IMG/VR virus record: IMGVR_UViG_2548876958_000014
From: a virus
Lineage: Duplodnaviria > Heunggongvirae > Uroviricota > Caudoviricetes
Length of the DNA: 41,963 nucleotides
Strand: one strand, 5' to 3'
Part shown: positions 1 through 41,266 of the stretch, piece after piece
Layout of the letters: each line of letters starts with the position of its first letter
Numbering within the stretch: the stretch's first letter is position 1
Notes under the pieces: model-generated
What the model was told of the DNA's origin: nothing
The model's input: only the letters and a program-made list of their open reading frames with translations
Databases searched by the model: none
Program-made: the position numbers and the translations under genes

Positions 1-1719
1 ATGATTTTTAGGGATAGCTTGAGAGTATTACCTTATGGTCGAGTAGATAATGATTTCTTCCAGATAGAAGAAAGACGTTCATGGAATGCAGGGCGATATT
101 ATTGGTCTAATAGAAGGATTTTTGGTTATATTGGAATTACTCAATCCAGTAATAAAGAGCTGAAAGATAAGTCGGGGAGAGAGGGATTCATAAGAAACCA
201 GGCTGCAAGAGAACTGAAAACTATTATATCTAATTTGTTAACTGAACTTGCTGATAGATTTTTTGGTTCACGTTCTGATGACCGTAAAGAGCTTTTAGAA
301 CAAGTTAAGCGTGAAAAAGAGTTAAGAAAATCTGCTCAACAACAAGCTCGAAAATCAACACAAAAAAGTTTTTCAGAAGCTTTGAAGAATCAGACACCAG
401 TTCTTGATGCTTCCTTGGAGGCTGTTAAAAGGCTGAAAACTAAGCTTGATAAAACTGATGGTTCGTTAGATTTAAACTATCTTAAAATTATAGACAGTGA
501 TCTTACAAACTTAGATGCGTTGCGCAGTGAAATTAAAACGCCTATCAAACCTCCAAAACTTGGAATGTATGAAGAGAAATATAGAGACTACAGAGATAAA
601 TTTAATGAGTTCTCTGCGTATATTCTACAAATGAAGTTAGCAATTAATAAACTTGATTCTGAATTAAATAAACTTGAGCCTTCATTGTCAGCGAAAAATC
701 ACCTTGAAAAAAATCAAGGTATTATTAATTCTAAACTAACTAAGTTTAATAACACGATAGAGGAGAAGATACATTCTCTTTTAAAAAAATGGGCCGATGA
801 AATAAAGGTTGATCGAAGTGATTATTATGCTAAAACTATATCAGTTGTTGATTCAATAGATAATGATTCACAAATTGAAAATGTGTTTAATTTGCTCGAT
901 AGTTTATATGTTGAGTCAGTTGATACCCTAACTTTCAAATATCAATCAATAATAAAAGGTCTCGATAGATTATTTGAAGGTATAAACTTAGATTCAGCAT
1001 TCTCATTATCTGAAGAAGAACGCTCATATTTTGAAGAAAAAGCTAAAAGTTTAAACGCGCTTGCACAGTTAGGTATTAGTGTTGAGATAATATCTCATGA
1101 ACTTGAAGAAATGGATTCTATGGTAACCAGAGGACTAAACTCTCTTCCTACTTCTGTAAAAGAACACCCTGGTTTTTCATTGGCGTTAAATGCTCACAGA
1201 TCGCTTACTCAACAAATACGTTTCTTATCACCTTTGAAAATATCAGGTTATCAATCCAGGCAGAGAATAACTGGAAAAAATATCATGGATTATGTCCTGA
1301 AGTTCTTTGGGGAGCGTTTCGAACGGCAACGAATAACTATTGAATTTAGTGAAGAGTTTAAGCAAATCGCAATAACAGATATACCATCAAGGATCTATCC
1401 TGTTTTTACTAATATTATCAACAATGCAATGTATTGGGTCAGTCTGTCAAATAATAGGCTCATAAAGATTGGTTTTGTGAATTCTTTGGTTATCATAGCA
1501 AATTCTGGTCCGGCAATTGATACCGATGATATCCCGCGACTATTTGAACTATTTTATAGCAAAAGAGCAAATGGACATGGGGTAGGTCTGTATCTATGTC
1601 GAGAAAACCTTGCTGTTGCACATCATAAAATATGGTATTCAGAACCTGATGAAGGCGATAACTATTTAATAAAAGATGGCGCTAATTTTGTGATCCAGTT
1701 CAATGGAGTGGAGTTCTAA
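1..1719 (+). CDS. Histidine-kinase-like protein (DHp H-box plus HATPase_c/GHKL ATPase domain), 5' end truncated by window edge
   Basis: ORF open from base 1; H-box-like ISHELEEMDSM; C-terminal N-box-like NIINNAMYW, G1-like DTDDIP, G2-like GHGVGLYLCRE; coiled-coil-rich region before it; AT-rich codon usage. Confidence 0.55.
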   Translation: MIFRDSLRVLPYGRVDNDFFQIEERRSWNAGRYYWSNRRIFGYIGITQSSNKELKDKSGREGFIRNQAARELKTIISNLLTELADRFFGSRSDDRKELLEQVKREKELRKSAQQQARKSTQKSFSEALKNQTPVLDASLEAVKRLKTKLDKTDGSLDLNYLKIIDSDLTNLDALRSEIKTPIKPPKLGMYEEKYRDYRDKFNEFSAYILQMKLAINKLDSELNKLEPSLSAKNHLEKNQGIINSKLTKFNNTIEEKIHSLLKKWADEIKVDRSDYYAKTISVVDSIDNDSQIENVFNLLDSLYVESVDTLTFKYQSIIKGLDRLFEGINLDSAFSLSEEERSYFEEKAKSLNALAQLGISVEIISHELEEMDSMVTRGLNSLPTSVKEHPGFSLALNAHRSLTQQIRFLSPLKISGYQSRQRITGKNIMDYVLKFFGERFERQRITIEFSEEFKQIAITDIPSRIYPVFTNIINNAMYWVSLSNNRLIKIGFVNSLVIIANSGPAIDTDDIPRLFELFYSKRANGHGVGLYLCRENLAVAHHKIWYSEPDEGDNYLIKDGANFVIQFNGVEF

Positions 1720-1720
1720 T

Positions 1721-3469
1721 ATGACAGTGGCAAATTATAATTCTCTTGTCCAGAAAACTTTCTGCGAAAATGTAATTCGTTCCGTTGTCATGATTGATGA
1801 CGATTTTCTGACGTATTCTGAATCAATCAGGGCGTTGAATAACGAAGTTGATTTAGACTACAACAAAATTGACTCATCTAAACGAGCCGCTACTCTTGAG
1901 AGCTTTTTTCAATCTAAAAATATGATTTGTGATGTTGACAATGGTTCTGTTAATTTCGATGTGGATCGGATTAGAAAATCAGATCTTATTATTGTAGATT
2001 ATCATCTTGATAATAATGCACCTGATAAAACACTTAAACTATTACAAGATTTGAAAGACTCCGATCATTTAAATATGATTGTAATATATACTAGAGAGAA
2101 TTTAGAAACGGTTTGGATGCAGATATCATCGACTCTCAAAGGTGCTCTGGATATCAACAGCTTGATCATTGACTACGATAATGAAGATGTCCAAAGTTAT
2201 TGGGAAGACGTTGTATTACCGAACTTAAATGATAATGGTAATAAAGCTCTCACAAGAGATGAAACAATAGCCTATATTAAAGACAGTAAGCCTTGTAGAA
2301 GAATTAAAAGATTAATACATGATGATGCTGTGTTGGAGGATCAAAAGGATAAAAACTTCATTGCAAAAATGATTGCAGAATATGCTGTGTCTAGAAATGC
2401 AATTATTTCTAGCAACACATCTGGCAATGTCATTCGGGGTGATGAAAGCGGAGTAAAATGGATTCAATGTGGTAATATCTTTGTCTCCCTATTTCATAAG
2501 GTTCAAGATGATCATGAAAACGATGGAGATAGAATTTGGCAAACTCTCAATGATTCTCTCATTGAATGGAAACCATCTTATTATCAGTTAATAAAATCTG
2601 AAATTCAGAATGCAATCGAAGCTGAGGCTTTATCTTTTGTAAATCATTTGGCTAACGATCATTACGGTCAAGCTGCGTGGTTAAATGAGATATTAAAATC
2701 AGACTCGCCTGATATTAGATGTAGAAATATTGACTTTGTATTTGGTAATTTATCAGAAGAGCTTTATCAAAGACTTAAAAATAATAATACGCTGGATGAA
2801 TTTATCAAAAGTGTTTTTGATAGCTATTCAAATGAATACGCTAACAGCGGAGTTGCTGCATTGCTCCAATATTGCTCTTCAAAAATGGATCTGCCATCAA
2901 ATAATGATACTTATCACGAAATGTATCATGCTTTAAATATGAATTTGTCTTCAAAGAATTTTGAAGATGGTCATATTTCTACTGGCACTATTTTCTTTGA
3001 TACAGAGTCGAACAAATGGTATTTATGTGTATCTGCGGCATGTGATTTGGTTCCTACTCAGGGTAACGACCCTCACCATGTAAGATTAAGTCCGCACAGG
3101 CTCATTAAAGTTCTGGAGCTTTTTAACGCCAGTCAGAGTAAAGCATTGCCATTTGCTGAACATTCGAAATATATATATGTAATGCATAAAAATCAAAGAA
3201 AATATCTCTCTATTTTCGAAGGGGATAAAACGCTTCCTGTTGTTGATTATATGGTGGTGTTGAATCATGGAACAACAGTTGATGGCGAAGAAAAAAATAT
3301 TATTTCTGCCGTGTTTTTAAGTAATATGGATGGCAACGTGCAAAATGTTCCTGTCCGACTCAAACTTAAATCTCAACTGAGAACTGGTTATGCAGAAAGA
3401 TATCAGGCTATAGCGTCTCAGTATAGCTCAAGGATTGGTGTGGATTATGTATCAATGATGCTACCATAA
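1721..3469 (+). CDS. Receiver (REC)-like N-terminal domain protein with ~450-aa C-terminal domain of unknown function (possible effector)
   Basis: ATG at 1721 two bases after upstream stop (ORF track gives 1703); N-terminal VVMIDDD acidic pair, DLIIVDYHL candidate phospho-acceptor Asp, NMIVIYT beta4 Thr; rest unrecognised. Confidence 0.45.
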   Translation: MTVANYNSLVQKTFCENVIRSVVMIDDDFLTYSESIRALNNEVDLDYNKIDSSKRAATLESFFQSKNMICDVDNGSVNFDVDRIRKSDLIIVDYHLDNNAPDKTLKLLQDLKDSDHLNMIVIYTRENLETVWMQISSTLKGALDINSLIIDYDNEDVQSYWEDVVLPNLNDNGNKALTRDETIAYIKDSKPCRRIKRLIHDDAVLEDQKDKNFIAKMIAEYAVSRNAIISSNTSGNVIRGDESGVKWIQCGNIFVSLFHKVQDDHENDGDRIWQTLNDSLIEWKPSYYQLIKSEIQNAIEAEALSFVNHLANDHYGQAAWLNEILKSDSPDIRCRNIDFVFGNLSEELYQRLKNNNTLDEFIKSVFDSYSNEYANSGVAALLQYCSSKMDLPSNNDTYHEMYHALNMNLSSKNFEDGHISTGTIFFDTESNKWYLCVSAACDLVPTQGNDPHHVRLSPHRLIKVLELFNASQSKALPFAEHSKYIYVMHKNQRKYLSIFEGDKTLPVVDYMVVLNHGTTVDGEEKNIISAVFLSNMDGNVQNVPVRLKLKSQLRTGYAERYQAIASQYSSRIGVDYVSMMLP

Positions 3470-3995: not shown

Positions 3996-5225
3996 TTAGG
4001 CTACCAGAGCATTTGATCTTTGAGCTTGAACGTAATCACTCCACCATTGCATCAAACTCTGTCGCTCTATCAGATATTCTGCACGATTGTATGCTGCGAT
4101 AATTTCATCTTTTTTCGAGTGGGCAAGCGCTGCCTCAAGAACTTCAGCTCTGAATTTACCAGACTCCTCTGCCGCTGTTCGTGCAATAGAACGCATACCG
4201 TGAGCTACAAGCTCGCCTCCGAACCCCATTCGGATGATAGCTGCGTTGGCTGTTTGTTCATGCATATGATTAAGAGGCGCTTTTATGCTGGGGAAAACCC
4301 ATTCTCTATGCCCACTTATTGATTTCATTAATTCAAGGATGCGCAAAGCTTCTTTACTCAAAGGAACTTTGTGAAGCTTTTTCATTTTCATGAAATCAGC
4401 AGGAATGTTCCAAATGCTGTTGGTTGTATCAATATCAGACCACCTTGCGCGAACGGCTTCACCCGGACGAACCCATGTCAACAATTGCCATTCAATTAGC
4501 ATACGTGTTTCCAACCGGATTGACGCATTCGTCAAAGATTCCATAAACCTTGGCAATTCGCTTGGGGGAAGGGCAGGCATATTTTGCTTTTTTGGTTTAC
4601 TGAATCTTTGACCAAGGTTGTCAGCCGGGTTGAACTCAATAAGTTCTTCAGTAGCTGCCCACCGGAAGATTTCATTCAGACGTGAAATGATACGGCGTAG
4701 AGTTTCCAATACGCCTCGTTGCTCAATAGGATCAAGGTGTTGTTTTAAGAGCTTAGGTCGGATCTCATTGATAGGGACATTACCCAGACCGGGAAAGACA
4801 TTTCTCTCTAAGCTGCGCCAGATGTCTGCTGCATGGTCTTGTGAGATACCTGATGTCTTTACCTTCTCATCTAACCATTTCCGCGCTACGGCTTGGAGAG
4901 TGTGCTCAGTAGCACTCTTTAATGCCTTCGCCTTATCGTTGTTATGGATTTGGGGATCAACACCATTTGCCAGAAAGGAGAGATATTCATCACGTAAGGC
5001 TCTGGCTCTTGCAAGGGTAAGGTGAGGATATGTCCCAAGGCTCATTTTGGTTCTTTTCTTGCTCACTGGTACTGCATACCTGAAATACCAATTTTTCTTG
5101 CCTCCTTTCGCCAAAGGAGCGATTCGTAGAATCAGACCATCACCGTCAAACAAGTTGATTTCTTTATCGGCTGGCTTGGTGCTTTTGATTTCAGTGTCAG
5201 TGAGCTTCTTAGCGATTTTTGCCAT
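3996..5225 (-). CDS. Tyrosine recombinase / integrase, P4-IntA type
   Basis: ORF 3996..5267; likely start MAKIAKKLTDTEIKS at 5225; N-terminal arm-binding region typical of P4/CP4-57 IntA-like integrases; C-terminal catalytic region with HxxR-like AHGMRSIARTAA and Tyr in AYNRAEY; 165 bp from ssrA 3' repeat. Confidence 0.85.
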   Translation of the reverse strand: MAKIAKKLTDTEIKSTKPADKEINLFDGDGLILRIAPLAKGGKKNWYFRYAVPVSKKRTKMSLGTYPHLTLARARALRDEYLSFLANGVDPQIHNNDKAKALKSATEHTLQAVARKWLDEKVKTSGISQDHAADIWRSLERNVFPGLGNVPINEIRPKLLKQHLDPIEQRGVLETLRRIISRLNEIFRWAATEELIEFNPADNLGQRFSKPKKQNMPALPPSELPRFMESLTNASIRLETRMLIEWQLLTWVRPGEAVRARWSDIDTTNSIWNIPADFMKMKKLHKVPLSKEALRILELMKSISGHREWVFPSIKAPLNHMHEQTANAAIIRMGFGGELVAHGMRSIARTAAEESGKFRAEVLEAALAHSKKDEIIAAYNRAEYLIERQSLMQWWSDYVQAQRSNALVA

Positions 5226-5388
5226 TTTGGGACCCTCGGTTTTTGGACCCTTCTGAGTGGGTCCCATTCAGGGTGCCATAACTCGTAGTTCTCAGCAATT
5301 CTCACTGGACGACAATAGACGTAAAAAAGCCCGCAGAGCTTGTGCTGTGTGGGCTTAGTAGACTTCATTGAACTTCAAACAACTAAAA

Positions 5389-5430
5389 AGTGGTGCTGGC
5401 GGGAGTTGAACCCGCGTCCGAAATTCCTAC
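5389..5430. repeat. Direct repeat of the ssrA 3' end (att core; junction between prophage and neighbouring island)
   Basis: 5394..5430 is identical to 40912..40948 (37 bp); preceding TGGTG also matches but the ssrA GAG is missing, so it is a non-functional 3' fragment of tmRNA. Confidence 0.85.
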
Positions 5431-5624
5431 ATACCATTTTTATTATGGTAAAAACAGTAGATTATGTTTGAAAACAATGTGTTAGTGTTATTTTGTATTT
5501 GCTCGTCTTACGCGTTTTTAATGCTCTGCCGCCAAAGTGCCGCCATTACATCAAGTATCTAGAATAAAATTAGTTAATAAATTACAATTAATATGTTAAT
5601 TGTTCTTGCATTCATAAGTGGGAC

Positions 5625-7361
5625 GTGATGAAAGAAAAAAAATTCGTTAGTGAGCTTTTCCTTGAAAATGGGCAGTTTATTTTAGTCGGTTTGACAGGTC
5701 GAACTGGTTCTGGTTGCACAACAACAGCTAATATTCTTGAAAACGAAAAAACAGTCTTCCCTGATGTAAGTAAATTACAGGGGTTTTACAAGGGATTGGA
5801 TGTCCATCGTTATAATATAGTTAAAAAATTCGCAGAAAATCACTGGGAAAATTTTTACTCAATTAAGGTGAGTGACCTAATCTCAGCGTATCTTCTGATG
5901 TTAACAGTTGAGGAAGCTTCTGAATTCATTCTATCATCTAATAAATCTATCAGTAAAGAGCATTTAGATATTGTATTAACTTTTGGTGTATTCTCAGATA
6001 ATCTCATTTTGACAAGATTTAAAAATGTAATTGAGAATTTGCTTGATCATAATAGTGAATTGAAGCTTGATGAAAAAACGATTAATAAATTTATATCAAT
6101 TTTGAAGTTAGTTAGAAAATTTACTAAAGAATTCAAAGCTGAACTAAATGAGATAAACTCAAATTTATATGTTTCAGCCTATCAGTTAGCAGGTAAGTCA
6201 ATTAGACGTCGTGGGCGTATTGAAGTCGATTTTGAAGATAAAGAGTTTATGCCTAAATCTGTTTTTCATTTGCCGGAAACTATTAATAGGGTTATTAAAT
6301 TAATAAGAAAAAGCAAAAGAGATAACGCATTAATTGTCATAGATGCTATTAGAAATCCATATGAGGCAAAATTTTTTAAGGATAGATATTCTGCATTTCA
6401 TTTAATGTCAATAAATGCCCCAGATGAACATCGAACAAACTATTTGCGGAAACTACATAAGTTTTCAGAAAAGCAGATAGAGGAAATAGATTCTGTAGAG
6501 TCAGGTAAAGGTGATAACTCTTACAAACATCTCACCAATCCAAATGTAACTAAATGTATTGAACTATCAGATATACACATTTTTAACCCAAAAAATGAAT
6601 TTGATAATGACAATATTTTAAAAGCACAATTAGCGTGGTACATCGCACTGATGAAGCATCCTGGTCTGATAACACCTACTGCAATGGAAAGGGTTATGCA
6701 AGTTGCGTATACGGTAAAATTAAACTCTGGCTGTATATCTAGACAGGTGGGAGCTGTAGTAACTGATGGTGATAATTCAATAAAATCAGTTGGTTGGAAT
6801 GATGTTGCCAACGGTCAGATTCCTTGCTCTATGAGATCTCTAGATGGCCTAATGAACGATTTTGATGAAAAAACGTACAGTCATTATGAGAGAAATAATA
6901 GTTCTTTCAGAATTAAAGCTAATGAGAAACTCTTAAATTTTAGGGCGATAGATAAAACTGGTGATATTTATAGAGGCAGGAACTTATCTTATTGTTTTAA
7001 AGATATACATAATGATCTTGATAAAGAGAAAAAAGGTAATCAAGTTCATACACGTGCATTACATGCTGAGGAAAACGCATTTTTGCAACTTGCAAAATAT
7101 GGTGGTATTGGCGTTCTGGGGGGGAAGTTGTATACAACTGCCAGTCCCTGTGAGTTGTGTGCGAAAAAAGCTTATCAGTTAGGTATATCTGAAATTGTAT
7201 TTATTGATCCCTACCCAGGTATAGCTCAAGACCATATTATTAATATAGGTAGTAAGCCACCAAAGTTAATACAATTTAGAGGCGCAATTGGGAAGTCATA
7301 TCACCGACTTTATGAGCAAATTATCCCGATAAAAGATGAGTTAGAATATCTCCTTGAGTAG
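5625..7361 (+). CDS. Fusion protein: N-terminal P-loop nucleotide-kinase-like domain + C-terminal cytidine/dCMP deaminase zinc-binding domain (resembles anti-phage dCTP deaminase architecture)
   Basis: N-terminal GLTGRTGSGCTTTANIL (CoaE/dNK-like P-loop with Cys where Lys is expected); C-terminal HAEENAF and SPCELCAKKA (H-A-E ... P-C-x-x-C deaminase zinc motifs); AT-rich; sits between att repeat and P2-type int. Confidence 0.6.
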   Translation: MMKEKKFVSELFLENGQFILVGLTGRTGSGCTTTANILENEKTVFPDVSKLQGFYKGLDVHRYNIVKKFAENHWENFYSIKVSDLISAYLLMLTVEEASEFILSSNKSISKEHLDIVLTFGVFSDNLILTRFKNVIENLLDHNSELKLDEKTINKFISILKLVRKFTKEFKAELNEINSNLYVSAYQLAGKSIRRRGRIEVDFEDKEFMPKSVFHLPETINRVIKLIRKSKRDNALIVIDAIRNPYEAKFFKDRYSAFHLMSINAPDEHRTNYLRKLHKFSEKQIEEIDSVESGKGDNSYKHLTNPNVTKCIELSDIHIFNPKNEFDNDNILKAQLAWYIALMKHPGLITPTAMERVMQVAYTVKLNSGCISRQVGAVVTDGDNSIKSVGWNDVANGQIPCSMRSLDGLMNDFDEKTYSHYERNNSSFRIKANEKLLNFRAIDKTGDIYRGRNLSYCFKDIHNDLDKEKKGNQVHTRALHAEENAFLQLAKYGGIGVLGGKLYTTASPCELCAKKAYQLGISEIVFIDPYPGIAQDHIINIGSKPPKLIQFRGAIGKSYHRLYEQIIPIKDELEYLLE

Positions 7362-7741
7362 AAATATTATACTCATCCTTCCTGAGGTAAGCTTCAAGAT
7401 GATCAATAAATATTGATCATCTTGAAAGTTAATTGCAGAGTCAAACTAGTAGTCAGACTGAAGCTTCGATAAAAAATGTTTTTGTTTTTTTCATTTTCTA
7501 ATGACTGTTTTTTATTGGTTTCTTTTTAATGTTGCAATGCTATGCTTTTCTACTATTTTTGAATGTGGCATCTTTGATGTTTTTATACAACAAAGATGAG
7601 GGCTTATAGGTTTTTTTGTGATGTAAAAATTATCTTATTCTATAAATAAAACCTAAACTCAGTCTGAAGAGTTAAATGAGAATGGATAACCTGCTGAATA
7701 TTATATTTGTAAATAGTTTGAGTTTGTTTTCATAAGTTACT

Positions 7742-8758
7742 CTATCTTAAGTTGCATAAAGGGTTTTTAGTTACCGCATCTTCAAGGTGATCGGGCGAAA
7801 AGTGGGCGTAAATCATCGTCATTTTTATATCGGCATGGCCCAGAATATCGCGCAGCACCAGTATGTTTCCGCCATTCATCATAAAATGGCTGGCGAATGT
7901 ATGACGTAGCACGTGAGTGCATTGGCCCTCTGGCAGCTCGATGCCAGCTCGCTTTACTGCTCGTTCAAAGGCTTTTCTGCACGGGGTGAATAGCTTCCCT
8001 CTGTTCTTGGGGAGTTCGTCATACAGATCTTGAGATATCGGCACGGTGCGGTTTTTCTTACCCTTCGTCTTGGTATAAGTGATGCGGTATTTAGATAACT
8101 GATGGCCCTGCAGGTTTTCAGCTTCACTCCAGCGTGCGCCGGTGGCCAGGCATATTTTTGCAATCAAAAGCAGACTGGGGTTTTGAGAATCAGCGCAGGC
8201 ATCTAGCAGACGTTTAATTTCTTCCGAGGTCAGGAACGCCAGTTCCCCCTCAGCGATTTTAAATGTTGGCAGCCCGGCGAGAGGATTTGGTGCTGACCAG
8301 TGGCCTAGTTTTTTCAATGTGCCGAAAACCGATGATAGGTTACGTTGCTCAAGATTCACCGTGCGTGGTTTTACTGGCGACATTAGTGTGCCGTCTTCGT
8401 TACGAACGTCACCTTTTAACCGTGCTTCGCGGTATTTCGTAAAGTCACCGGCTGTCAGTTCTGAGGCGATGGGGTCGCCTAGACCATTACAGATAATTCT
8501 AAGTTTCGCCATGAGGCGCTTGGGGTCTGCGAGTGTCTGACCATACAGGGAATACCAAAGCTCAATTAATTCTGATAGGCGTCGCCGATCATCCTTTTCA
8601 CCCAACCACGGTTTTTTATTCACTTCTTCCATTGTGAAGCTTTCAAAAGCAATGGCTTCGCCTTTCGTAGCAAATTGCTTACGCACGCGCTTACCATTGC
8701 GTCCATTGGGATAGCACTCACACAACCATTTTCCGTTCGGCTGTTTTCTGATGGTCAT
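7742..8758 (-). CDS. int: P2/186-type tyrosine integrase
   Basis: 338 aa, matching the ~337-aa P2/186 integrases; conserved stretches CLATGARWSEAE, KYRITYTKTKGKKNRTVPIS, VLRHTFASHFMMNGGNILVL, MTMIYAHF; followed by repressor gene in same orientation. Confidence 0.9.
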   Translation of the reverse strand: MTIRKQPNGKWLCECYPNGRNGKRVRKQFATKGEAIAFESFTMEEVNKKPWLGEKDDRRRLSELIELWYSLYGQTLADPKRLMAKLRIICNGLGDPIASELTAGDFTKYREARLKGDVRNEDGTLMSPVKPRTVNLEQRNLSSVFGTLKKLGHWSAPNPLAGLPTFKIAEGELAFLTSEEIKRLLDACADSQNPSLLLIAKICLATGARWSEAENLQGHQLSKYRITYTKTKGKKNRTVPISQDLYDELPKNRGKLFTPCRKAFERAVKRAGIELPEGQCTHVLRHTFASHFMMNGGNILVLRDILGHADIKMTMIYAHFSPDHLEDAVTKNPLCNLR

Positions 8759-8759
8759 A

Positions 8760-9392
8760 TCAAAGGCTCTTAATGATTTTCAGTGCGCGGCCTACTACCT
8801 CAATGTCATCTAGGCCACACTCAAACGATGAATCATCCTGATGCACTACTAATTTGTTTCCCGGAAGTCGAGTCAATTTAACAATGCTTTTTATCCCGTC
8901 AATATCGACTAACCACATACCATTTACTGGTGGTGTTTGGTTGCGATCTATTAAATAAGAATCACCAGAAGTAGTCACCAGCAGTAGGTTGCTTGAGTCT
9001 GAGGGGAGTATGCTGCTATCAATGATTGCTTTTCCAGCATCGACCAATAAACCACCTTTGAGAGTCGCCTTGTCAATTTCAGGAGATACTAGTTCAGAAA
9101 GAGGTACAACCTTGCTGGAGTTCACGGAGTTGATATTTTTTTTAGGTTCAATGTTTGGACCTGGCTCCCCCTGTCCGGTGGTTAGCCACAGTAAAGAAAC
9201 TCCTGTTTCCAAGGCGCACTGAATCACCCACTCTGCAGGAAAACTATCTCTTAAGTATCTGTTTGCCATGGTGCTTTTTGATGCGCCTAAGTGATCGCAA
9301 AGTTGCTGTCTGGACTTGAAATCATAGGCTGCCATTAGTCTATGGATAGCCTCTCTTCCCCCTGTATTCTCTCCAACCTTTATCTGTATCAT
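8760..9392 (-). CDS. cI: Phage CI-type immunity repressor (186-like)
   Basis: Sits between int and a divergent early operon; N-terminal HTH-like region (SRQQLCDHLGASKSTMANRYLR) and C-terminal domain as in 186 CI; start may be internal. Confidence 0.7.
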   Translation of the reverse strand: MIQIKVGENTGGREAIHRLMAAYDFKSRQQLCDHLGASKSTMANRYLRDSFPAEWVIQCALETGVSLLWLTTGQGEPGPNIEPKKNINSVNSSKVVPLSELVSPEIDKATLKGGLLVDAGKAIIDSSILPSDSSNLLLVTTSGDSYLIDRNQTPPVNGMWLVDIDGIKSIVKLTRLPGNKLVVHQDDSSFECGLDDIEVVGRALKIIKSL

Positions 9393-9404
9393 TTTTTAAT
9401 CCTG

Positions 9405-9456
9405 TTGACGTATCAAATATTGGATCGTAGTATCTCGATGTATCAAATATTGAATC
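9405..9456 (+). promoter_or_regulatory. Early lytic promoter (pR-like) overlapped by two direct copies of a candidate CI operator
   Basis: TTGACG (9405..9410), 17-bp spacer, TAGTAT (9428..9433); 17-bp repeat GTATCAAATATTG(G/A)ATC at 9410..9426 and 9440..9456, each an imperfect palindrome. Confidence 0.45.
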
Positions 9457-9511
9457 AAGTAAAACGAGATAAAACGACGTAAACCAAACCTTAATCGGGA
9501 GATACTGCACT

Positions 9512-9754
9512 ATGAGCACTGATATTTCAATTCGTGTACCAAAAGAGATGGCTACGCCTGCAGAGTTCGCGGAATGGGAAGGTATCTCCCGCGGCTCTGT
9601 GTATCAAAAAATTCATCATGGTCAGCTTGCTAAATACATGGTCAAGAAAGAAAAAAACAAAGGCCGCGTAAGCCTGCGTTATTTAATGTACAAAACCGAT
9701 CAGGTCCGTGAATCCCTCGGTCATTCCAACTTCCGCGTCATTGTTGGTAAGTAA
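9512..9754 (+). CDS. Apl/Cox-like excisionase and lytic-switch regulator
   Basis: 80-aa first gene of the operon divergent from cI; HTH-like AEFAEWEGISRGSVYQKIHHGQL; position as in 186 apl / P2 cox. Confidence 0.6.
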   Translation: MSTDISIRVPKEMATPAEFAEWEGISRGSVYQKIHHGQLAKYMVKKEKNKGRVSLRYLMYKTDQVRESLGHSNFRVIVGK

Positions 9755-9786
9755 GTTCAATTATGAGAACTTTCTAAGGGGGTAGC

Positions 9787-10296: not shown

Positions 10297-10303
10297 GGTG
10301 CTT

Positions 10304-10504
10304 ATGCTGACGAAAGAACCATCATTTGCATCGCTGCTGGTAAAACAAAGTCCGGCAATGCACTACGGTCACGGCTGGATCATGGGTGAGGATGGTAAAC
10401 GCTGGCATCCGTGCCGTTCACAAGATGAATTGCTGGCAGAACTATCTACGAAAAAACGGGGGAACAAATGGCTATTGAAGGCGCTGCGGCGACTGTTCCA
10501 TTAA
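10304..10504 (+). CDS. Hypothetical early-region protein
   Basis: ATG 10304 with GAGGTG RBS just after cII stop; no recognisable motif. Confidence 0.4.
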   Translation: MLTKEPSFASLLVKQSPAMHYGHGWIMGEDGKRWHPCRSQDELLAELSTKKRGNKWLLKALRRLFH

Positions 10505-11337: not shown

Positions 11338-12191
11338 GCACCATCCTGAAATGGGCGGGAAATAAAACCGCCATTATGTCCGAACTGAAAAAACACCTTC
11401 CTGCTGGCCCGCGACTGGTTGAACCTTTCGCGGGTTCCTGTGCTGTGATGATGGAGACGGATTACCCCAGCTATCTTGTTGCGGATATTAATCCTGATTT
11501 AATCAACCTCTATAAAAAGGTTGCTGCTGATTGTGAGGCATTTATATCTCGTGCCAGAGCTTTATTTGAGGAAGCAAACAGGGAGGTGGCTTATTACAAC
11601 ATAAGGCAGGAGTTTAATTACTCCACTGAAATTACTGATTTCATGAAAGCGGTATATTTTCTGTATCTCAATCGTCATGGTTACCGTGGGTTATGTCGCT
11701 ATAACAAGAGCGGGTATTTCAACATTCCCTACGGTAATTATAAAAATCCGTATTTCCCTGAAAAAGAAATTCGCGCATTTGCAGAGAAAGCCCAGCGGGC
11801 AACGTTTATCTGCGCCAGCTTTGATGAAACGCTGGCGATGTTGAAGGCGGGGGATGTGGTGTATTGCGATCCGCCGTATGACGGCACGTTTTCCGGTTAT
11901 CACACTGACGGCTTCACTGAAGATGACCAGTATCACCTGGCATCCGTTCTTGAACATCGGTCATCAGAAGGACATCCGGTCATTGTTTCTAACAGTGACA
12001 CATCCCTGATCCGTTCGCTGTATCGCAATTTTACTCACCACTACATCAAGGCAAAACGCAGCATCGGCGTAGCAGCTGGTGAGAGTAAATCTGCAACAGA
12101 AATCATCGCTGTTTCTGGGGCGCGCTGCTGGGTGGGATTTGATCCTTCGCGTGGCGTGGATAGTTCTGCCGTGTACGGAGTGCGTGCATGA
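11334..12191 (+). CDS. DNA N6-adenine methyltransferase (Dam-like, orphan)
   Basis: ATG 11334; N-terminal KWAGNK and EPFAGS (SAM-binding) and catalytic DPPY motif; no cognate restriction gene seen. Confidence 0.75.
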
Positions 12192-14602
12192 GCCATGCTG
12201 ATATGAACAACTGCAGCGGCTTTAACGAGGCCGCCGCAGCATTCTCATGGAACAGCCCGAAAAAGGCTATTAACCCTTATCTGGACCCGGCGGAAGTTGC
12301 GCCGGTTTCTGCGCTTTCAAACCTGATCACTCTGTACGCTGCCGATAACGAGCAGGAACAACTGCGCCGTGAGGCACTGAGTGATCAGGTCTGGGAGCGT
12401 TATTTCTTTAATGAATCCCGTGATCCTGTCCAGCGCGAAATGGAGCAGGATAAGCTCATTAGCCGGGCAAAGCTGGCGCATGAGCAGCAGCGTTTTAATC
12501 CAGACATGGTCATTCTGGCAGACGTCAACGCCCAGCCTTCCCATATCAGCAAGCCGCTGATGCAACGTATTGAATACTTCAGCAGCCTGGGCAGGCCAAA
12601 GGCTTATTCCCGCTATTTGCGTGAGACGATTAAGCCATGTCTGGAACGACTGGAGCATGTACGCGAGAGTCAGCTATCCACTTCTTTTCGCTTTATGGCA
12701 AGCCATGAAGGGCTGGACGGCCTGCTGATCCTGCCTGAAATGAGTCAGGATCAGGTGAAACGCCTGTCCACCCTTGTTGCTGCGCATATGAGCATGTGTC
12801 TTGATGCAGCTTGTGGCGATTTGTATGCCACCGATGACGTTAAGCCAGAAGAAATCCGCAAAACATGGGAAAAGGTGGCAGCGGAAACCCTGCGTCTGGA
12901 TGTTATTCCGCCTGCGTTTGAGCAACTCCGTCGGAAAAGAAACCGCCGTAAACCCGTGCCCTATGAACTCATTCCGGGTTCGCTGGCGCGTATGTTGTGT
13001 GCCGACTGGTGGTATCGGAAATTATGGAAGATGCGTTGCGAATGGCGGGAAGAGCAGTTGCGTGCTGTCTGCCTGGTCAGCAAAAAAGCATCCCCCTATG
13101 TCAGCTATGAAGCCGTGATGCATAAACGTGAGCAGCGCCGTAAGTCGCTGGAGTTTTTTCGTTCTCATGAACTGGTGAACGAAGACGGCGACACGCTGGA
13201 TATGGAATATGTGGTAAACGCCAGCAGCAGCAACCCTGCGCATCGCCGCAATGAGATGATGGCCTGTGTTAAAGGTCTGGAGCTTATCGCGGAAATGCGC
13301 GGTGACTGCGCCGTTTTCTACACCATCACCTGTCCGTCACGTTTCCATTCCACGCTAAATAACGGCAGGCCCAACCCAACCTGGACAAATGCGACGGTAA
13401 GACAAAGCAGTGATTATCTGGTCGGCATGTTTGCTGCATTTCGTAAGGCGATGCACAAAGCCGGATTGCGGTGGTATGGCGTGCGGGTGGCTGAGCCGCA
13501 TCATGACGGTACAGTTCACTGGCACCTGTTGTGTTTTATGCGCAAAAAAGACCGCCGCGCCATCACTGCATTACTGCGTAAGTTTGCCATCCGTGAAGAC
13601 CGCGAGGAGCTGGGCAATAACACAGGGCCGCGCTTTAAGTCTGAGTTGATTAACCCGCGCAAAGGAACGCCGACAAGCTACATCGCGAAATACATTAGTA
13701 AGAACATTGACGGGCGTGGTCTGGCTGGCGAGATCAGCAAGGAAACGGGTAAATCCCTGCGTGATAACGCTGAATACGTTAATGCCTGGGCGTCTCTGCA
13801 TCGTGTTCAGCAATTCCGCTTCTTTGGCATTCCGGGGCGTCAGGCTTACCGTGAACTGCGATTGCTGGCTGGTCAGGCGGCAAGGCAACAGGGGGACAAA
13901 AAAGCAGGTGCGCCGGTACTGGATAACCCGCGCCTTGATGCAATCCTGGCTGCTGCTGATGCTGGTTGTTTTGCCACCTACATCATGAAGCAGGGCGGCG
14001 TACTGGTTCCCCGCAAATATCACCTGATCAGAACCGCTTATGAAATCAACGAAGAGCCGACCGCCTATGGCGATCACGGCATTCGTATTTATGGCATCTG
14101 GTCACCCATTGCAGAGGGCAAGATCTGCACTCATGCAGTGAAGTGGAAAATAGTTCGTAAGGCCGTTGACGTTCAGGAGGCGGCAGCCGACCAGGGCGCT
14201 TGCGCCCCTTGGACTCGTGGCAATAACTGTCCCCTTGCTGAAAATTTGAACCAACAAGGGAAAGACAAATTAGCTGATGGGGACTCCAGAACGGATATTA
14301 CCTGTATGAATGACAAGGAGTTGCACGATTACCTGCACAGTATGAGCAAAAAAGAGCGCCGGGAACTGGCTGCAAGGTTACGCCAGGTGAAACCGAAACG
14401 GCGTAAAGACTACAAACAGCGAATTACAGACCATCAGCGACTGCAGCTCGTGTATGAGCTGAGGTCCAGAGGATTTGATGGCAGCGAGAAAGAGGTCGAT
14501 TTACTCCTTCGCGGCGGCAGTATTCCGTCAGGAGCAGGCCTGCGTATCTTCTATCGGAACCAGCGTTTGCAGGAAGATGACAAGTGGCGGAACCTGTATT
14601 AA
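12188..14602 (+). CDS. A: Replication initiation protein gpA (rolling-circle HUH endonuclease)
   Basis: 804 aa; HUH-like [10 protein letters not shown] and Tyr-rich YIAKYISKN catalytic region; P2/186 gene A position. Confidence 0.85.
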
Positions 14603-15497: not shown

Positions 15498-16577
15498 GTG
15501 GCGTTATCAGATGCGTTAATTACAGTAAATCAAGCAGAACGGGGCGGTGAAAACGCGTTGAGAGGCTTTTCATATCAAGCCTCTTGGGGGATAAATTATT
15601 TACTTGAAAAACAAAAAGAAAAGGAGAAATATTTATTTCTATTTGAATATCATGACGATATTCTTGTATTGAATTCATCTGTTTCTCCGACTAGTGCTGA
15701 GTTTATCCAAGTTAAAACAAAAAAAGATGGTAAATGGACACTCGCAGCAATAGTGAACGCAACAAAAGCTAAACCTAAATCATTTGTTGCAAAACTATAT
15801 GACCATTTCTATCAATTCGTTGGTCACGAAATTTATATGGTTCTGTTATCGAATGCTGGATTCGATTTCTTAAATGATAATAACGAAAAAGGTAGTGATC
15901 TTAATAATGAGCATAAGGAAATTATAATTAGTAAGGTTCAAGAGCAGCTAAATACTAAAAAAGAAGTTCCTCTTGATAAAATAAAATTTAAAACATCTGA
16001 TCTTAGTTTGTTAGATCCTAACTCACATTTATACGGGAAAGTTGCAGTTTTTTTGAATTCTTACTTTGGGGATGATCATGGTATTAATTCAACAGCATTC
16101 ACTAAATTATTAATCAATAAGTGTAATGAGAAGGTTAGTGTTGCTTCTAGTGATATCAAAACTTTTGAAGATTTAGTACTAAAGAAAGGTATATCTTCAG
16201 AATTTGTAACTGATTTATTATCTGGACTCATTGCAAGCATAAAAATAACGCCAAAATGGGAACAGGTTTGTATGTTGCTTGGTACTTTCTCAGATCCTTA
16301 TGAGGGGATTAAATTACAATCAGTTTTTACACGCATATCAATAAAAGTGCTCAATGTCAATTCAATATACTATCTTTATTTTCTGGAATTTCAATCGGCT
16401 CTAAAGAGTATAGAGCATTATCGTGAGATACCTGTTCGAGACCTCTTCTTTACACTCGAAAAAACAATTGCAGCGGGGGACGGGGATTTCTCTTTATTAA
16501 ATCAAGAAGAGAAATTTATGATTGCTATATATGCAATTATAAAGTTGACTTTTGAGGATGTTTCTTATGAAGAATAA
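15498..16577 (+). CDS. Candidate defence effector: nuclease-like protein (possible PD-(D/E)xK / Cap4-like fold; LmuA-like)
   Basis: 359 aa, GTG start; N-terminal GFSYQ and acidic cluster EYHDDILV followed by EFIQVKTKK (D...(E/Q)xK-like); AT-rich; stop overlaps downstream start. Confidence 0.5.
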   Translation: MALSDALITVNQAERGGENALRGFSYQASWGINYLLEKQKEKEKYLFLFEYHDDILVLNSSVSPTSAEFIQVKTKKDGKWTLAAIVNATKAKPKSFVAKLYDHFYQFVGHEIYMVLLSNAGFDFLNDNNEKGSDLNNEHKEIIISKVQEQLNTKKEVPLDKIKFKTSDLSLLDPNSHLYGKVAVFLNSYFGDDHGINSTAFTKLLINKCNEKVSVASSDIKTFEDLVLKKGISSEFVTDLLSGLIASIKITPKWEQVCMLLGTFSDPYEGIKLQSVFTRISIKVLNVNSIYYLYFLEFQSALKSIEHYREIPVRDLFFTLEKTIAAGDGDFSLLNQEEKFMIAIYAIIKLTFEDVSYEE

Positions 16578-18225
16578 CGTTAAATTTAAAAATATAAAAA
16601 TACTCTCATTAAGAGACAGAAAAGCTTTTTCTTATGAGTTTTCAGAAGGGGTTAACTTCATATATGGTACAAATGATGTTGGTAAATCAAGCCTGATTAA
16701 AAGTCTTTATTACACATTAGGTGGAGATTTAAGGCTTGATGATGCTTGGAAATCAGATGATATAGTTACACTGGTGGAAATTAATAACGGGGAAAGTGAT
16801 TTTATTTTTTTGCGTTATAAAAAGATTATTGGTGTCTTTGATTTGAAGAATGATGATCTAGTCGTGTATAACACGATTTCATCATTAGCATCTCGTGTTT
16901 CAAATATATTTGGTTTTAAACTGGAATTACATAATAAATATACGGGTGCTACGACTCAGGCAAACCCTGCTTGTTTGTTTGCCCCATTCTTTATTGATCA
17001 GGATGAAGGATGGAAAGCGGTGATAAATTCTTTCGAAAACATGAGTATGTACTCAGAATGGCAAAAAAACATTCTTTACTATCACTCTGGAATTAAGCCA
17101 AAGGAATATTACACAGTTCAAGGGAAAATCAAAGAAGTTAAAGTTAAAATTTCAGAGTTAGATGGTTTTGTTAAGGTTCTAAAAAGAAGCAAAAGTAAGA
17201 TTGATGAATCTTTTGGTGTGGTTTTATTTGATGTTGATTTGGATTTTTATAAATCAAAGTTAGAACGTATATTAAATGAATATTCTAATTTGAATTTAGT
17301 TCAGACAGAATATAGATTGAATCTTTTGAGGTTATATTCTAGGAAGAATTTCCTTGAGAGTGAACTCAAAGAGATAACTGCGATTATTGATAATGAATTT
17401 GAGATTTCGAATTTTCGAGATGATAATGTTGCTTATTCAGTAAATGAATATAATTATATAAACCATAGAGATGAAATGCTCAAAAACATTGCTGTTCTTG
17501 CAGATGAGAAAAGCAAGATTGAGGAAAATATTCCTAAATTGAATCAAAAGCTAGAAGAGTCAAGGGCTGCTTCAGAGGCGTTGCAGGCGCTGATTTTAGA
17601 AACTCAATCGGAAATAACGCTTCATGATGTTATTAAATCTGCTGCATACCATGAAATTGAATCTACTTTTGTTTCACAGTTAGATGAGTTATTCGTTGAG
17701 ATTGGTCGAAAAGAAGGCGAGTTGACAGAATTACAAGAAGAATTAGAAGTATACAATGATAAGAAAAGAACTGTTAAAATAAATGACTGTTTCAAAGAGT
17801 ATTTCGCTAAAGCTCTTAAAGAGCTTGGTGTCGAAAATACAAAGGTAGGTGGCCTTAGTAGTTATAATAATATTACTAAGGGTAAGACTGGTAGTCGAGG
17901 TCCTCGAGGTATATTTGCATTTCACTACGCGCTACTTAGTGTTATGAAAAGCAACTCTTCAGTTGAGAATATGCCTATAGTAATAGACTCTCCAAAGCAA
18001 CAAGATTTGGATCCAGAGCATACGCATAAGCTTATAAAACTATGCTTGGATGGGTTTTCCCTTACAAATCAGATTATTATTGGCACTGTTGGTTATGAGA
18101 GTTTCATGGATGGTTTTAATAGCATCAAACTTGAAAATAAATATCATCTTTTAAATGATGAACATTATGATAATGTTTATTCTCAATTAATGCCATTGTT
18201 TGAACGGGTGATACTTTCAAGATGA
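16552..18225 (+). CDS. SMC/Rad50-like ABC ATPase with central coiled coil (LmuB-like)
   Basis: Walker A GTNDVGKSS; long heptad-rich middle; C-terminal PIVIDSPKQQDLD (Walker B / D-loop-like); possible starts 16552/16558/16567 overlap upstream gene. Confidence 0.55.
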   Translation: MRMFLMKNNVKFKNIKILSLRDRKAFSYEFSEGVNFIYGTNDVGKSSLIKSLYYTLGGDLRLDDAWKSDDIVTLVEINNGESDFIFLRYKKIIGVFDLKNDDLVVYNTISSLASRVSNIFGFKLELHNKYTGATTQANPACLFAPFFIDQDEGWKAVINSFENMSMYSEWQKNILYYHSGIKPKEYYTVQGKIKEVKVKISELDGFVKVLKRSKSKIDESFGVVLFDVDLDFYKSKLERILNEYSNLNLVQTEYRLNLLRLYSRKNFLESELKEITAIIDNEFEISNFRDDNVAYSVNEYNYINHRDEMLKNIAVLADEKSKIEENIPKLNQKLEESRAASEALQALILETQSEITLHDVIKSAAYHEIESTFVSQLDELFVEIGRKEGELTELQEELEVYNDKKRTVKINDCFKEYFAKALKELGVENTKVGGLSSYNNITKGKTGSRGPRGIFAFHYALLSVMKSNSSVENMPIVIDSPKQQDLDPEHTHKLIKLCLDGFSLTNQIIIGTVGYESFMDGFNSIKLENKYHLLNDEHYDNVYSQLMPLFERVILSR

Positions 18226-40297: not shown

Positions 40298-40780
40298 TTA
40301 TTCATCTGGGATCTCACCCGTTTCAAGAAAATGTATAAAGCCAGGCTCATCTATGATGATTGTGCCTTTCATCCTGGCTGCCGATACTTTTGATGGGCCT
40401 GCATTGTAACCGCAACAGAGCATCTGAAGGCTTTGGGTTACAGAGGTTCTTACCGTTAATCCTTGTTCATTCGCCTTATCAACCAATCTTTCTTTATCTG
40501 CTTTCTTAAATCCGGTGAAGCACACATCGAATGTATTTTTTTTCGGACCAGACTGCTTAGTGAGATGTGAGTAGTTTTCGGGGAGGAATGACGCGCATTC
40601 CTGAATGGCTTGTTCTGGTGAATCGTACTGTTTAAGAATGCGGTCTTTTCGGAAGGTTTTTATTCGATCGGTGTTCTTACAAATGCCCTGTATATGATTT
40701 TCGCTATAACTGATGCTCTGTATTGAGTGAACACCGATACGACCATTTGCATTGATGTAAACAAAGTGAAGTTCTTCCAT
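40298..40780 (-). CDS. Small two-domain protein: N-terminal WYL-like domain + C-terminal BRCT-like domain (prophage cargo)
   Basis: 160 aa; TFRKDRI matches the WYL hallmark (R-x-F-R-x-D-R-I); C-terminal FDVCFTGF ... GTIIIDEPGFIHFLE resembles a BRCT fold; lies between ogr and attR, where P2 has no gene. Confidence 0.45.
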   Translation of the reverse strand: MEELHFVYINANGRIGVHSIQSISYSENHIQGICKNTDRIKTFRKDRILKQYDSPEQAIQECASFLPENYSHLTKQSGPKKNTFDVCFTGFKKADKERLVDKANEQGLTVRTSVTQSLQMLCCGYNAGPSKVSAARMKGTIIIDEPGFIHFLETGEIPDE

Positions 40781-40860
40781 GTGAAACCTCTTTGCATGAT
40801 TTCAAGATGGCGACAGGCAAGATGGACGCAAAAGTCTGTCGCCATTTTGCCGCCACTACC

Positions 40861-40903: not shown

Positions 40904-41266
40904 TGGTGGAGCTGGCGGGAGTTGAACCCGCGTCCGAAATTCCTACATCCTCGGTACTACATGCTTAGTCAGTCTTTACATTCGCTTGCCAGCTGCGGAC
41001 GGACACGCCACTAACAAACTAGCCTGATTAAGTTTTAACGCTTCAACCCCAGGCAGGGCTTCCACGCGATCTCTTTTGGGTTTGACCTCTCTTGATCCCC
41101 GTCCTAAGAGCGGAGGCTAGGGAGAGAGGGCTCTAAGCAGGTTATTAAGCTGCTAAAGCGTAGTTTTCGTCGTTTGCGACTATTTTTTGCGGCTTTTTAC
41201 GAGGCCAACCGCCCCTCGGCATGCACCTTGGGTTTCGCAAATCCCGTCGAATCCAGAATCAGCCCC
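40904..41266 (-). ncRNA. ssrA: tmRNA (SsrA), complete
   Basis: Reverse complement begins GGGGCTGATTCTGGATTCGACGGG and ends ...GGTTCAACTCCCGCCAGCTCCACCA; contains tag ORF GCAAACGACGAAAACTACGCTTTAGCAGCTTAA (ANDENYALAA); 363 nt. Confidence 0.95.

What the first reader, a model, noticed from the sequence alone, without database searches (positions are those of the whole stretch)
5625..7361. Kinase-like/cytidine-deaminase fusion gene at the att-int junction: candidate nucleotide-depletion (dCTP deaminase-type) defence gene
A single 578-aa AT-rich ORF combines an N-terminal P-loop nucleotide-kinase-like domain (GLTGRTGSGCTTTANIL) with a C-terminal CMP/dCMP deaminase zinc-binding domain (HAEENAF ... 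SPCELC). This is the architecture reported for anti-phage dCTP deaminases that deplete dCTP on infection. It lies between the ssrA-derived att repeat and the 3' end of int, a position normally empty in P2, so it looks like a moron.
Basis: partly seen in the sequence, partly recalled or inferred. Interest (0 to 1): 0.7.

Follow-up and report, generated by a model that had tools for sequence, protein, structure and literature searches.

The report
Known anti-phage dCTP deaminase in prophage
This gene is a real kinase-like/deaminase fusion that starves invading phages of dCTP, but it is ordinary: the same allele, from the same prophage slot in E. coli U09, was tested experimentally in 2021-22 and RefSeq already names it.

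Summary
An intact ORF at 5625..7361 (+) carries both quoted motifs. The likely start is the ATG at 5628, giving 577 aa.

It is a full member of the anti-phage dCTP deaminase family. It scores E=1e-145 on the PADLOC dCTPase model and 425 bits (cut-off 400) on the NCBIfam NF041025 equivalog. It is 72% identical end to end to the validated E. coli AW1.7 enzyme.

The construct Tal et al. synthesised for their second validated gene (E. coli U09, 577 aa) has an upstream region 99% identical to window 5390..5624. The window gene is therefore almost certainly the U09 allele.

An exact 38-bp ssrA repeat at 5395..5432 and 40911..40948 bounds a 186/Fels-2-like P2-family prophage. The gene lies inside it, in a cargo slot (5548..7741) between the att arm and the int stop codon. 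Related prophages have this slot empty or filled with other genes. A 2026 preprint already lists the int-att slot as a minor P2 defence hotspot.

Side observations:
- a decayed 208-aa membrane-protein gene downstream of the deaminase;
- a Lamassu pair elsewhere in the same prophage;
- uncharacterised alternative cargo in the same slot of sister phages.

The parts
5395..5432 (+). att core: the distal copy of the last 38 bp of ssrA. It marks the int-side end of the P2-family prophage and also the proximal att of the neighbouring island on the left.
   Evidence: Exact repeat of 40911..40948, with 0 expected in shuffles. Matches in other genomes start at window 5390/5395 when the left flank differs. 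Phage record OK490403 starts at the base equivalent to 5433.
5433..5547 (+). attP arm, kept in all relatives whether or not they carry cargo. It contains two GCCGCCA repeats 11 bp apart (5528, 5539), which are probably Int arm-type sites (inference).
   Evidence: 82-87% identical to the stretch that directly abuts the int stop codon in the empty-slot prophages L012/L013 and in L010, L011 and L014. A matching GCCGCCA lies at 40849 on the other arm.
5548..5627 (+). Allele-specific leader of the cargo module. It presumably holds the promoter/5'UTR of the deaminase.
   Evidence: Homology to empty-slot prophages stops at about 5547. The leader is 100% identical in L001 and 75-76% in the Citrobacter/Siccibacter alleles, against 65-68% at third codon positions. 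It is included in the 'native promoter' construct of Tal et al.. The consensus scan found no sigma-70 match here.
5628..7361 (+). Anti-phage dCTP deaminase gene (577 aa). It has an N-terminal P-loop kinase-like domain with a non-canonical Walker A (GRTGSGCT, Cys in place of Lys) and a C-terminal zinc CDA-fold deaminase (H479-A-E481 ... P507-C-E-L-C511, numbered from the ATG).
7388..7431 (.). 21-nt inverted repeat 27 bp after the stop codon. It may act as a transcription stop or protein-binding site, but it has no T-run and is not a canonical intrinsic terminator.
   Evidence: Arms 7388-7408 and 7411-7431, 90% complementary. The terminator scan found nothing here.
7555..7731 (-). Decayed remnant of the first ~60 codons of a 208-aa predicted membrane protein gene. 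It has two in-frame stops. In the closest alleles from other genera the gene is intact between the deaminase and int.
   Evidence: tblastn gives 42% identity, E=3e-8, with stops in the alignment. The gene is intact in L015-L018. No ORF of 50 aa or more lies in 7362..7741.
7742..8758 (-). P2-family tyrosine integrase, convergent with the deaminase. Its stop codon is the right boundary of the cargo slot.
   Evidence: Pfam Int_N plus Phage_integrase. RefSeq names it 'site-specific integrase' next to CI in every carrier.
40911..40948 (+). att core inside the intact ssrA (tmRNA gene 40904..41266, minus strand). This is the other end of the prophage.

Best explanation
The ORF encodes a single-gene anti-phage nucleotide-depletion enzyme of the Tal/DcdV family. 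It is carried as a lysogenic-conversion cargo gene (moron) by a 186/Fels-2-like P2-family prophage integrated in ssrA.

Shown here: the gene is intact; it has both domains with every residue that was mutated in the validated homologue; it is an equivalog-level family member; and it lies in a sharply bounded variable slot between the attP arm and the int stop codon.

Taken from the literature on homologues: when an infecting lytic phage interferes with host transcription, the enzyme becomes active and deaminates dCTP (and dCMP) to deoxyuridine nucleotides. The dCTP pool collapses and phage DNA replication stalls. Both the kinase-like and the deaminase domain are required. In DcdV homologues the enzyme is held inactive after translation by a labile small RNA (DifV) encoded just upstream.

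Inferred: the lysogen, and hence the prophage, gains protection from competing phages.
For: - Family: PADLOC dCTPase E=1.1e-145, 485 bits. NCBIfam NF041025 'anti-phage dCTP deaminase' equivalog, 425.4 bits against cut-off 400. Pfam dCMP_cyt_deam_1 E=1.6e-14.
- Validated homologue: 72% identity and 85% similarity over the full length to the AW1.7 protein, which defends against T7 and depletes dCTP.
- Mutated residues: AW1.7 G29/C30 and C370/C401, whose mutation abolished defence, are conserved and invariant in 28 homologues.
- Catalytic motif: the H-to-C spacing of HAE...PCxxC equals that of V. cholerae DcdV (29 residues).
- U09 link: the visible 399 nt of the U09 construct match window 5390..5624 at 99.1%, up to the base before the start codon. 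They match L001 at 99.5%, and the L001 CDS is 100% identical to the window's. Table S1 lists U09 as 577 aa, 1734 nt, 'Validated experimentally'.
- Fold: the AF2 model (pLDDT 75.7) matches T4, S-TIM5, S. mutans and human dCMP deaminases and the PBCV-1 dCMP/dCTP deaminase in its C-terminal half, and dephospho-CoA, adenylate and T4 dNMP kinases in its N-terminal half.
- Context: exact att repeats. All 20 E. coli genomes with this allele have it next to the same int, with different left flanks. The cargo boundaries are mapped. The prophage has a full set of P2-type genes. RefSeq annotates the gene as 'anti-phage dCTP deaminase'.
- Activation model.
Against: - No experiment was done on this window's own copy.
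- The held text of the U09 construct is cut before the coding part, so CDS identity to U09 is inferred from the upstream identity, the shared locus and the equal length.
- No DifV-like element could be shown. The 195-nt upstream stretch folds no better than shuffles (z=+1.17). Rfam finds nothing. Most of the stretch is attP arm that is conserved even in prophages without the gene.
- No consensus promoter was found upstream.
- The deaminase part of the AF2 model has several low-confidence loops.
Confidence: 0.93

Rival explanations
1. A phage auxiliary metabolic gene. On this reading it is a dCMP deaminase like T4 Cd that feeds dUMP into dTTP synthesis for the prophage's own replication, not a defence gene.
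For: The deaminase domain's nearest solved relatives are phage and cellular dCMP deaminases, with T4 1vq2 as the best hit. tblastn finds T-even cd genes at ~30% identity over the C-terminal 30% of the protein. DcdV also deaminates dCMP.
Against: - T4-type Cd enzymes have 140-190 residues and no kinase-like domain. Here the N-terminal 350 residues are conserved and were required for defence in AW1.7.
- The protein passes an equivalog model built for the defence family.
- The gene sits in a dispensable, variable slot that is empty in sister prophages. A replication function would not be expected there.
- The U09 allele conferred defence when cloned alone.
Confidence: 0.03
2. Mainly a toxin-antitoxin-like addiction module (DcdV-DifV type) that stabilises the prophage, with phage defence as a side effect.
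For: DcdV homologues are toxic when expressed without their cognate upstream RNA, and the authors compare the pair with TA systems. The gene lies at the very edge of the element, next to att.
Against: No DifV-like element was detected here. Defence was directly shown for the U09 and AW1.7 genes under native promoters without reported toxicity. The two roles do not exclude each other.
Confidence: 0.03
3. A polynucleotide-editing deaminase (APOBEC/TadA-like) that mutates phage DNA or RNA rather than depleting free nucleotides.
For: There are weak Pfam hits to APOBEC_N, MafB19-deam and Bd3614-deam, all below their cut-offs. TadA structures appear further down the Foldseek list.
Against: All these hits are sub-threshold and overlap the generic CDA core. 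[quoted passage not shown] The best structural matches are mononucleotide deaminases.
Confidence: 0.01

Closest known systems
E. coli U09 dCTP deaminase (IMG 2677870675; Tal et al., bioRxiv 10.1101/2021.04.26.441389, published Nat Microbiol 2022)
   Same: The locus is the same: an ssrA att repeat followed by the same arm and leader, 99.1% identical over 235 nt up to the start codon. The length is the same (577 aa, 1734 nt). It was validated experimentally as a single-gene defence with its native upstream region.
   Different: Nothing demonstrable. The coding part of the U09 construct is not visible in the held text. In U09 the left flank is the ypjA side (as in L001), whereas the window has a P4-type integrase island there.
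E. coli AW1.7 dCTP deaminase (WP_045268677.1), the mechanistically characterised family member
   Same: 72% identity across the whole length (577 vs 576 aa). The Walker-A-like GSGC, the HAEEN and SPCELC motifs, and C370/C401 are identical.
   Different: AW1.7 carries it in a tRNA-Phe island next to two integrases, not in a P2-family prophage. The upstream regions are unrelated. AW1.7 gave a wider phage range than U09.
DcdV-DifV of Vibrio cholerae VSP-1 and its homologues (Severin/Hsueh et al., bioRxiv 10.1101/2021.03.31.437871)
   Same: The architecture is the same two domains, PLK plus DCD. The Walker A lacks the lysine. The H-to-C spacing in HAE...PCxxC is the same. Both fall under the same NCBIfam family name.
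   Different: DcdV has 532 aa and sits in a chromosomal island next to CBASS. It has an experimentally defined 152-174-nt inhibitory RNA just upstream, and no counterpart could be shown here. I did not have the DcdV or H10407 sequences, so I could not measure identity.
int-att defence hotspot of P2-like phages (bioRxiv 10.64898/2026.02.27.708500)
   Same: [quoted passage not shown] The preprint puts 3% of P2 defence systems there.
   Different: The text I searched in that preprint does not mention dCTP deaminase (0 occurrences). Here the slot boundaries are mapped to the base: the arm ends at about 5547 and the other boundary is the int stop at 7742.

Membership tests
Anti-phage dCTP deaminase (Tal et al. 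2022; NCBIfam NF041025; PADLOC dCTPase) | C-terminal zinc-dependent CDA-fold deaminase with HAE ... PCxxC | tested here: met
   Pfam PF00383 E=1.6e-14. H479/E481/C508/C511 are invariant in 28 homologues. Foldseek matches dCMP deaminases with probability 1.0.
Anti-phage dCTP deaminase (Tal et al. 2022; NCBIfam NF041025; PADLOC dCTPase) | N-terminal P-loop kinase-like domain whose nucleotide-binding motif (G29, C30 in AW1.7) is needed for defence | tested here: met
   GRTGSGCTT is identical to AW1.7 and invariant in 28 homologues. The N-terminal half of the model matches dephospho-CoA, adenylate and dNMP kinases. There is a weak Pfam AAA_18 hit and a weak TIGR00152 hit at aa 20-42.
Anti-phage dCTP deaminase (Tal et al. 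2022; NCBIfam NF041025; PADLOC dCTPase) | Whole-protein score above the curated equivalog cut-off; length over 350 aa | tested here: met
   425.4 bits against a cut-off of 400, covering model positions 1-437/437. PADLOC gives 485 bits. The protein has 577 aa.
Anti-phage dCTP deaminase (Tal et al. 2022; NCBIfam NF041025; PADLOC dCTPase) | Confers phage resistance and depletes dCTP on infection | not testable with these tools
   Defence was shown by others for the U09 gene, which has the same locus and a 99% identical upstream region. Depletion was shown for AW1.7. Neither was measured for this copy.
Anti-phage dCTP deaminase (Tal et al. 2022; NCBIfam NF041025; PADLOC dCTPase) | Located among defence genes or on mobile elements | tested here: met
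   The gene lies inside a prophage that also carries Lamassu LmuA/LmuB, in a slot reported as a P2 defence hotspot. Tal's Table S1 scores the U09 gene 'Next to known defense systems? FALSE'.
DcdV-DifV two-part system (Hsueh/Severin et al.) | Cognate inhibitory small RNA (about 150-175 nt) encoded immediately 5' of the deaminase on the same strand | tested here: inconclusive
   Only 195 nt lie between the att core and the start codon, and 115 of them are attP arm conserved in prophages without the gene. RNA fold z=+1.17. There is no Rfam hit. A 32-aa ORF at 5464..5562 exists. DifVs share no sequence similarity, so absence cannot be shown by sequence.
P2-family (Peduoviridae, 186/Fels-2-like) prophage | Direct att repeats, integrase, CI/CII/Fil control region, gpA replication nickase, and portal, terminase, capsid, sheath, tape-measure, gpD and Ogr genes in P2 order | tested here: met
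   plus the RefSeq annotation of identical prophages. The region 7742-25000 is 95.9% identical over 17 kb to Peduoviridae record OK490403.

The most novel reading that the evidence does not exclude
The inhibitory (DifV-like) RNA or the promoter of this allele may overlap the attP arm and core (5395..5627). Because site-specific recombination changes the sequence upstream of the core, expression or restraint of the deaminase would then depend on whether the phage is integrated or excised. That would let the phage switch off, or unleash, nucleotide depletion during its own lytic cycle. A weaker variant: the decayed 208-aa membrane protein gene (7555..7731) was once a functional partner, and this lineage runs a stripped-down system.
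Probability: 0.08. Interest if true: 0.45.

Novelty: already known. Interest (0 to 1): 0.12.

Why it matters
It matters little as a discovery. The gene family, its mechanism, this allele's defence activity and even this type of insertion slot are all published, and RefSeq names the gene correctly.

The case does show that the first-stage reader can recognise a defence gene and its moron status from raw sequence. The base-level mapping of the att-int cargo slot gives a simple anchor (att arm on one side, int stop on the other) for harvesting other cargo from sister prophages. Some of that cargo has no known domains: a 506-aa protein, and a 154 + 182 aa pair.

Tried and rejected
- **Gene belongs to the island on the left** (P4-type integrase 3996..5267). 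Rejected. The ssrA repeat at 5395..5432 separates them. The left island sits directly next to ssrA in 560 genomes without the prophage. The deaminase travels with the P2-type int next to different left flanks.
- **DifV-like RNA.** Rfam at gathering threshold found only tmRNA. The fold of 5433..5627 gave z=+1.17. An alignment of upstream regions across alleles shows only att/arm conservation plus an 80-nt allele-specific leader. The result is inconclusive, not negative.
- **Promoter/terminator scan** of 5268..7800. There is no plus-strand promoter match upstream of the gene and no terminator after it. Counts are no higher than in shuffles.
- **ETEC H10407 homologue** studied by Hsueh et al. It did not appear among the 44 blastn hits, so it is either more than ~35% divergent in DNA or absent from the collection. 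No comparison was made.
- **Published Hsueh paper** (PMC9830645). It is not held, so I used the preprint and a 2025 review.
- **Solved structure of a full-length family member.** None was found by sequence; only dCMP deaminase domains matched.
- **Isolated phages carrying the gene.** tblastn against 50,697 phage records gave no hit above 60% identity or 80% coverage. PHROGs nevertheless holds the family as phrog_8118 'unknown function'.
- **AW1.7's downstream 152-aa ORF** as a relative of the 208-aa protein. There is no similarity.

Full report
**Observation.** One search lists a single intact ORF at 5625..7361 on the plus strand, 578 aa from a GTG. The next codon is an ATG at 5628. Three lines of evidence favour it as the start:
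- RefSeq CDSs for identical genes are 1734 nt.
- The validated AW1.7 protein aligns from that methionine.
- Tal et al. list the U09 gene as 577 aa.

The gene is AT-rich, with GC 0.29-0.35 against 0.44-0.54 for the neighbouring phage genes.

**What the protein is.**
- Pfam finds the CMP/dCMP deaminase zinc-binding domain at aa 354-526 (E=1.6e-14).
- The PADLOC 'dCTPase' model matches at E=1.1e-145.
- The NCBIfam equivalog NF041025 'anti-phage dCTP deaminase' scores 425.4 bits against a curated cut-off of 400, covering the whole model.
- BLASTP against the E. coli AW1.7 protein (L004 6995..8725) gives 72% identity and 85% similarity over the full length, with three gaps. Tal et al. characterised this enzyme.
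- Tal et al. abolished defence and dCTP depletion by mutating G29/C30 in the kinase-like nucleotide-binding motif and C370/C401 in the deaminase domain. All four residues are conserved here, and they are invariant in an alignment of 28 homologues down to 59% identity. So are H479, E481, C508 and C511.
- The Walker-A-like motif reads GRTGSGCT, with Cys where a canonical P-loop has Lys. V. cholerae DcdV also departs from the canonical motif at this position.
- The H-to-C spacing of the catalytic motif (29 residues) equals that of DcdV.
- An AlphaFold2 model built on the 28-sequence alignment has mean pLDDT 75.7. By Foldseek its C-terminal half matches the dCMP deaminases of T4, cyanophage S-TIM5, S. 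mutans and human, and the PBCV-1 dCMP/dCTP deaminase. Its N-terminal half matches dephospho-CoA kinase, adenylate kinase and T4 dNMP kinase.

**It has already been tested.** Table S5 of Tal et al. (bioRxiv 10.1101/2021.04.26.441389) gives the DNA synthesised for their second validated gene, from E. coli U09.
- The visible 399 nt contain the ssrA att repeat, the arm and the leader.
- They match window 5390..5624 at 99.1% (one mismatch, one gap), ending at the base before GTGATG.
- They match strain VG888-46E9 (L001) at 99.5% over 398 nt, and the L001 deaminase CDS is 100% identical to the window's.
- Table S1 lists the U09 gene as 577 aa, 1734 nt, 'Validated experimentally'.

The coding part is cut off in the held text, so CDS identity is an inference, but a strong one. 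RefSeq/PGAP already names the gene 'anti-phage dCTP deaminase' in all the E. coli genomes that carry it.

**Whose gene is it.** The last 38 bp of ssrA occur twice as exact copies, at 40911..40948 inside the intact tmRNA gene and at 5395..5432. Between them lies a complete P2-family prophage, with the following genes (and the RefSeq annotation of identical prophages):
- int at 7742..8758;
- CI at 8760..9392;
- CII and Fil;
- Dam methylase;
- gpA nickase at 12188..14602;
- a DinI/Tum-like gene;
- portal, terminase, capsid, sheath and tape-measure genes;
- gpD and Ogr.

It is 95.9% identical over 17 kb to a Peduoviridae record.

The DNA left of 5395 is a separate island with its own P4-type integrase (3996..5267). 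In 560 E. coli genomes that island sits directly against ssrA. The prophage therefore inserted between ssrA and the older island. The deaminase lies inside the prophage.

All 20 complete E. coli genomes with this allele (at least 95% nt identity; 20 of 5,426) have it beside the same int, while the left flank varies between ypjA and a ParB/recombinase island.

**The slot.** In sister prophages with nothing between att and int (T28R, 702/18), the stretch equivalent to window 5390..5547 runs straight into the int stop codon. The cargo module is therefore 5548..7741. Other relatives fill the same slot in different ways:
- divergent dCTP deaminase alleles at 72-75% nt identity (TW10598, JX21CE8);
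- a 506-aa protein of unknown function (strain 873.10 and 'Klebsiella phage Kp4849-2');
- two small unknown proteins (strain 58-3).

None of these alternative proteins hits Pfam or PADLOC. A 2026 preprint already reports the integrase-att interval as a minor defence hotspot of P2-like phages, holding 3% of their systems. Rousset et al. 2022 described only the main hotspot next to cos. Elsewhere in E. coli, homologues sit in a tRNA-Phe island (AW1.7), next to serine recombinases (LR-29-1) and inside an ICE (LF82). About 38 of 5,426 genomes carry some homologue.

**How it most likely works.** This comes from the literature on homologues and was not tested here. The enzyme is made but kept inactive. 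Infection by a phage that tampers with host RNA polymerase releases it. T7 escape mutants map to gp5.7 and gp0.7. The enzyme then deaminates dCTP, and dCMP in the case of DcdV, which empties the dCTP pool and blocks phage DNA synthesis. No editing of DNA or RNA was seen. For DcdV and three homologues the restraint is a small RNA, DifV, encoded just upstream and acting after translation. A 2025 review merges the two papers into one model: transcription shut-off, decay of the RNA, active deaminase.

**Search for a DifV-like partner.** I looked for such a partner here and could not show one.
- Only 195 nt separate the att core from the start codon, and 115 of them are attP arm conserved without the gene.
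- The 80-nt leader is only slightly better conserved than third codon positions: 75-76% against 65-68%.
- The region folds no better than shuffles (z=+1.17).
- Rfam is silent.

Because DifVs share no sequence similarity, this is inconclusive rather than negative.

**Downstream of the gene.** A 21-nt inverted repeat lies at 7388..7431. It is followed by an AT-rich 380-bp spacer that the TW10598 and JX21CE8 alleles lack. The spacer holds a decayed fragment (7555..7731, minus strand, two in-frame stops) of a 208-aa predicted membrane protein gene. That gene is intact between the deaminase and int in the closest alleles (89% aa identity), from Citrobacter portucalensis and Siccibacter colletis prophages. 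It is absent from the AW1.7, TW10598 and JX21CE8 loci, so it is not a required partner.

**Verdict.** The gene is a member of a known, experimentally characterised family and almost certainly the very allele tested as 'E. coli U09'. The novelty class is 'already known' and interest is low.

Noticed in passing
window 15498..18225 (+): This is a Lamassu pair. LmuA (359 aa; PADLOC PDLC00243 E=4e-143; Pfam Cap4_nuclease) overlaps LmuB (557 aa; PDLC00255 E=6e-253). The pair sits in the classical P2 hotspot between gpA/DinI-like and the portal gene, so this 35.5-kb prophage carries two known defence systems.
   Followed up: partly
window 7555..7731 (-); intact copies at L016 2108..2734, L018 6874..7500, L015 6875..7498: This is a pseudogene remnant of a 208-aa protein with three hydrophobic segments and no Pfam hit. 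The gene is intact between the deaminase and int in Citrobacter/Siccibacter prophages that carry the 89%-identical deaminase. Its function is unknown.
   Followed up: partly
L014 133..1653 (-) = OK490403.1; L011 2959..4479 (-); L010 3495..4479 (-): These are alternative cargo in the same att-int slot of sister prophages: a 506-aa protein (WP_000615103.1), and a 154 + 182 aa pair. None hits Pfam or PADLOC. They are candidate uncharacterised defence or lysogenic-conversion genes.
   Followed up: partly
window 1..3469 (+): This AT-rich gene pair lies in the neighbouring ssrA island. It comprises a HATPase_c + HEF_HK histidine-kinase-like protein (its ORF starts at the window edge) and a 588-aa Response_reg_2 (PF19192) protein. 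There is no PADLOC hit. The pair is present at 99.9% identity next to ssrA in hundreds of E. coli genomes. It looks like a two-component-type conflict system of unknown role.
   Followed up: partly
window 5528..5545 and 40838..40855: GCCGCCA occurs twice, 11 bp apart, about 100 bp from the att core on the int side, and once (plus a partial GCCA) about 60 bp from the core on the ogr side. All copies have the same orientation. They are probably arm-type Int binding sites. The 7-mer alone is not significantly enriched in the window (13 matches against 7.3 expected).
   Followed up: partly
window 40298..40780 (-): This 160-aa ORF lies between ogr and the ssrA-side att. It matches phrog_2561 ('DNA ligase', E=2e-77) and has a weak BRCT hit and a weak PADLOC PDC-S48 hit. 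It may be a second cargo gene at the other end of the prophage.
   Followed up: no
window 7388..7431: A 21-nt inverted repeat (90% complementary, 2-nt gap) lies 27 bp after the deaminase stop. It has no T-run on either strand, and its role is unknown.
   Followed up: no
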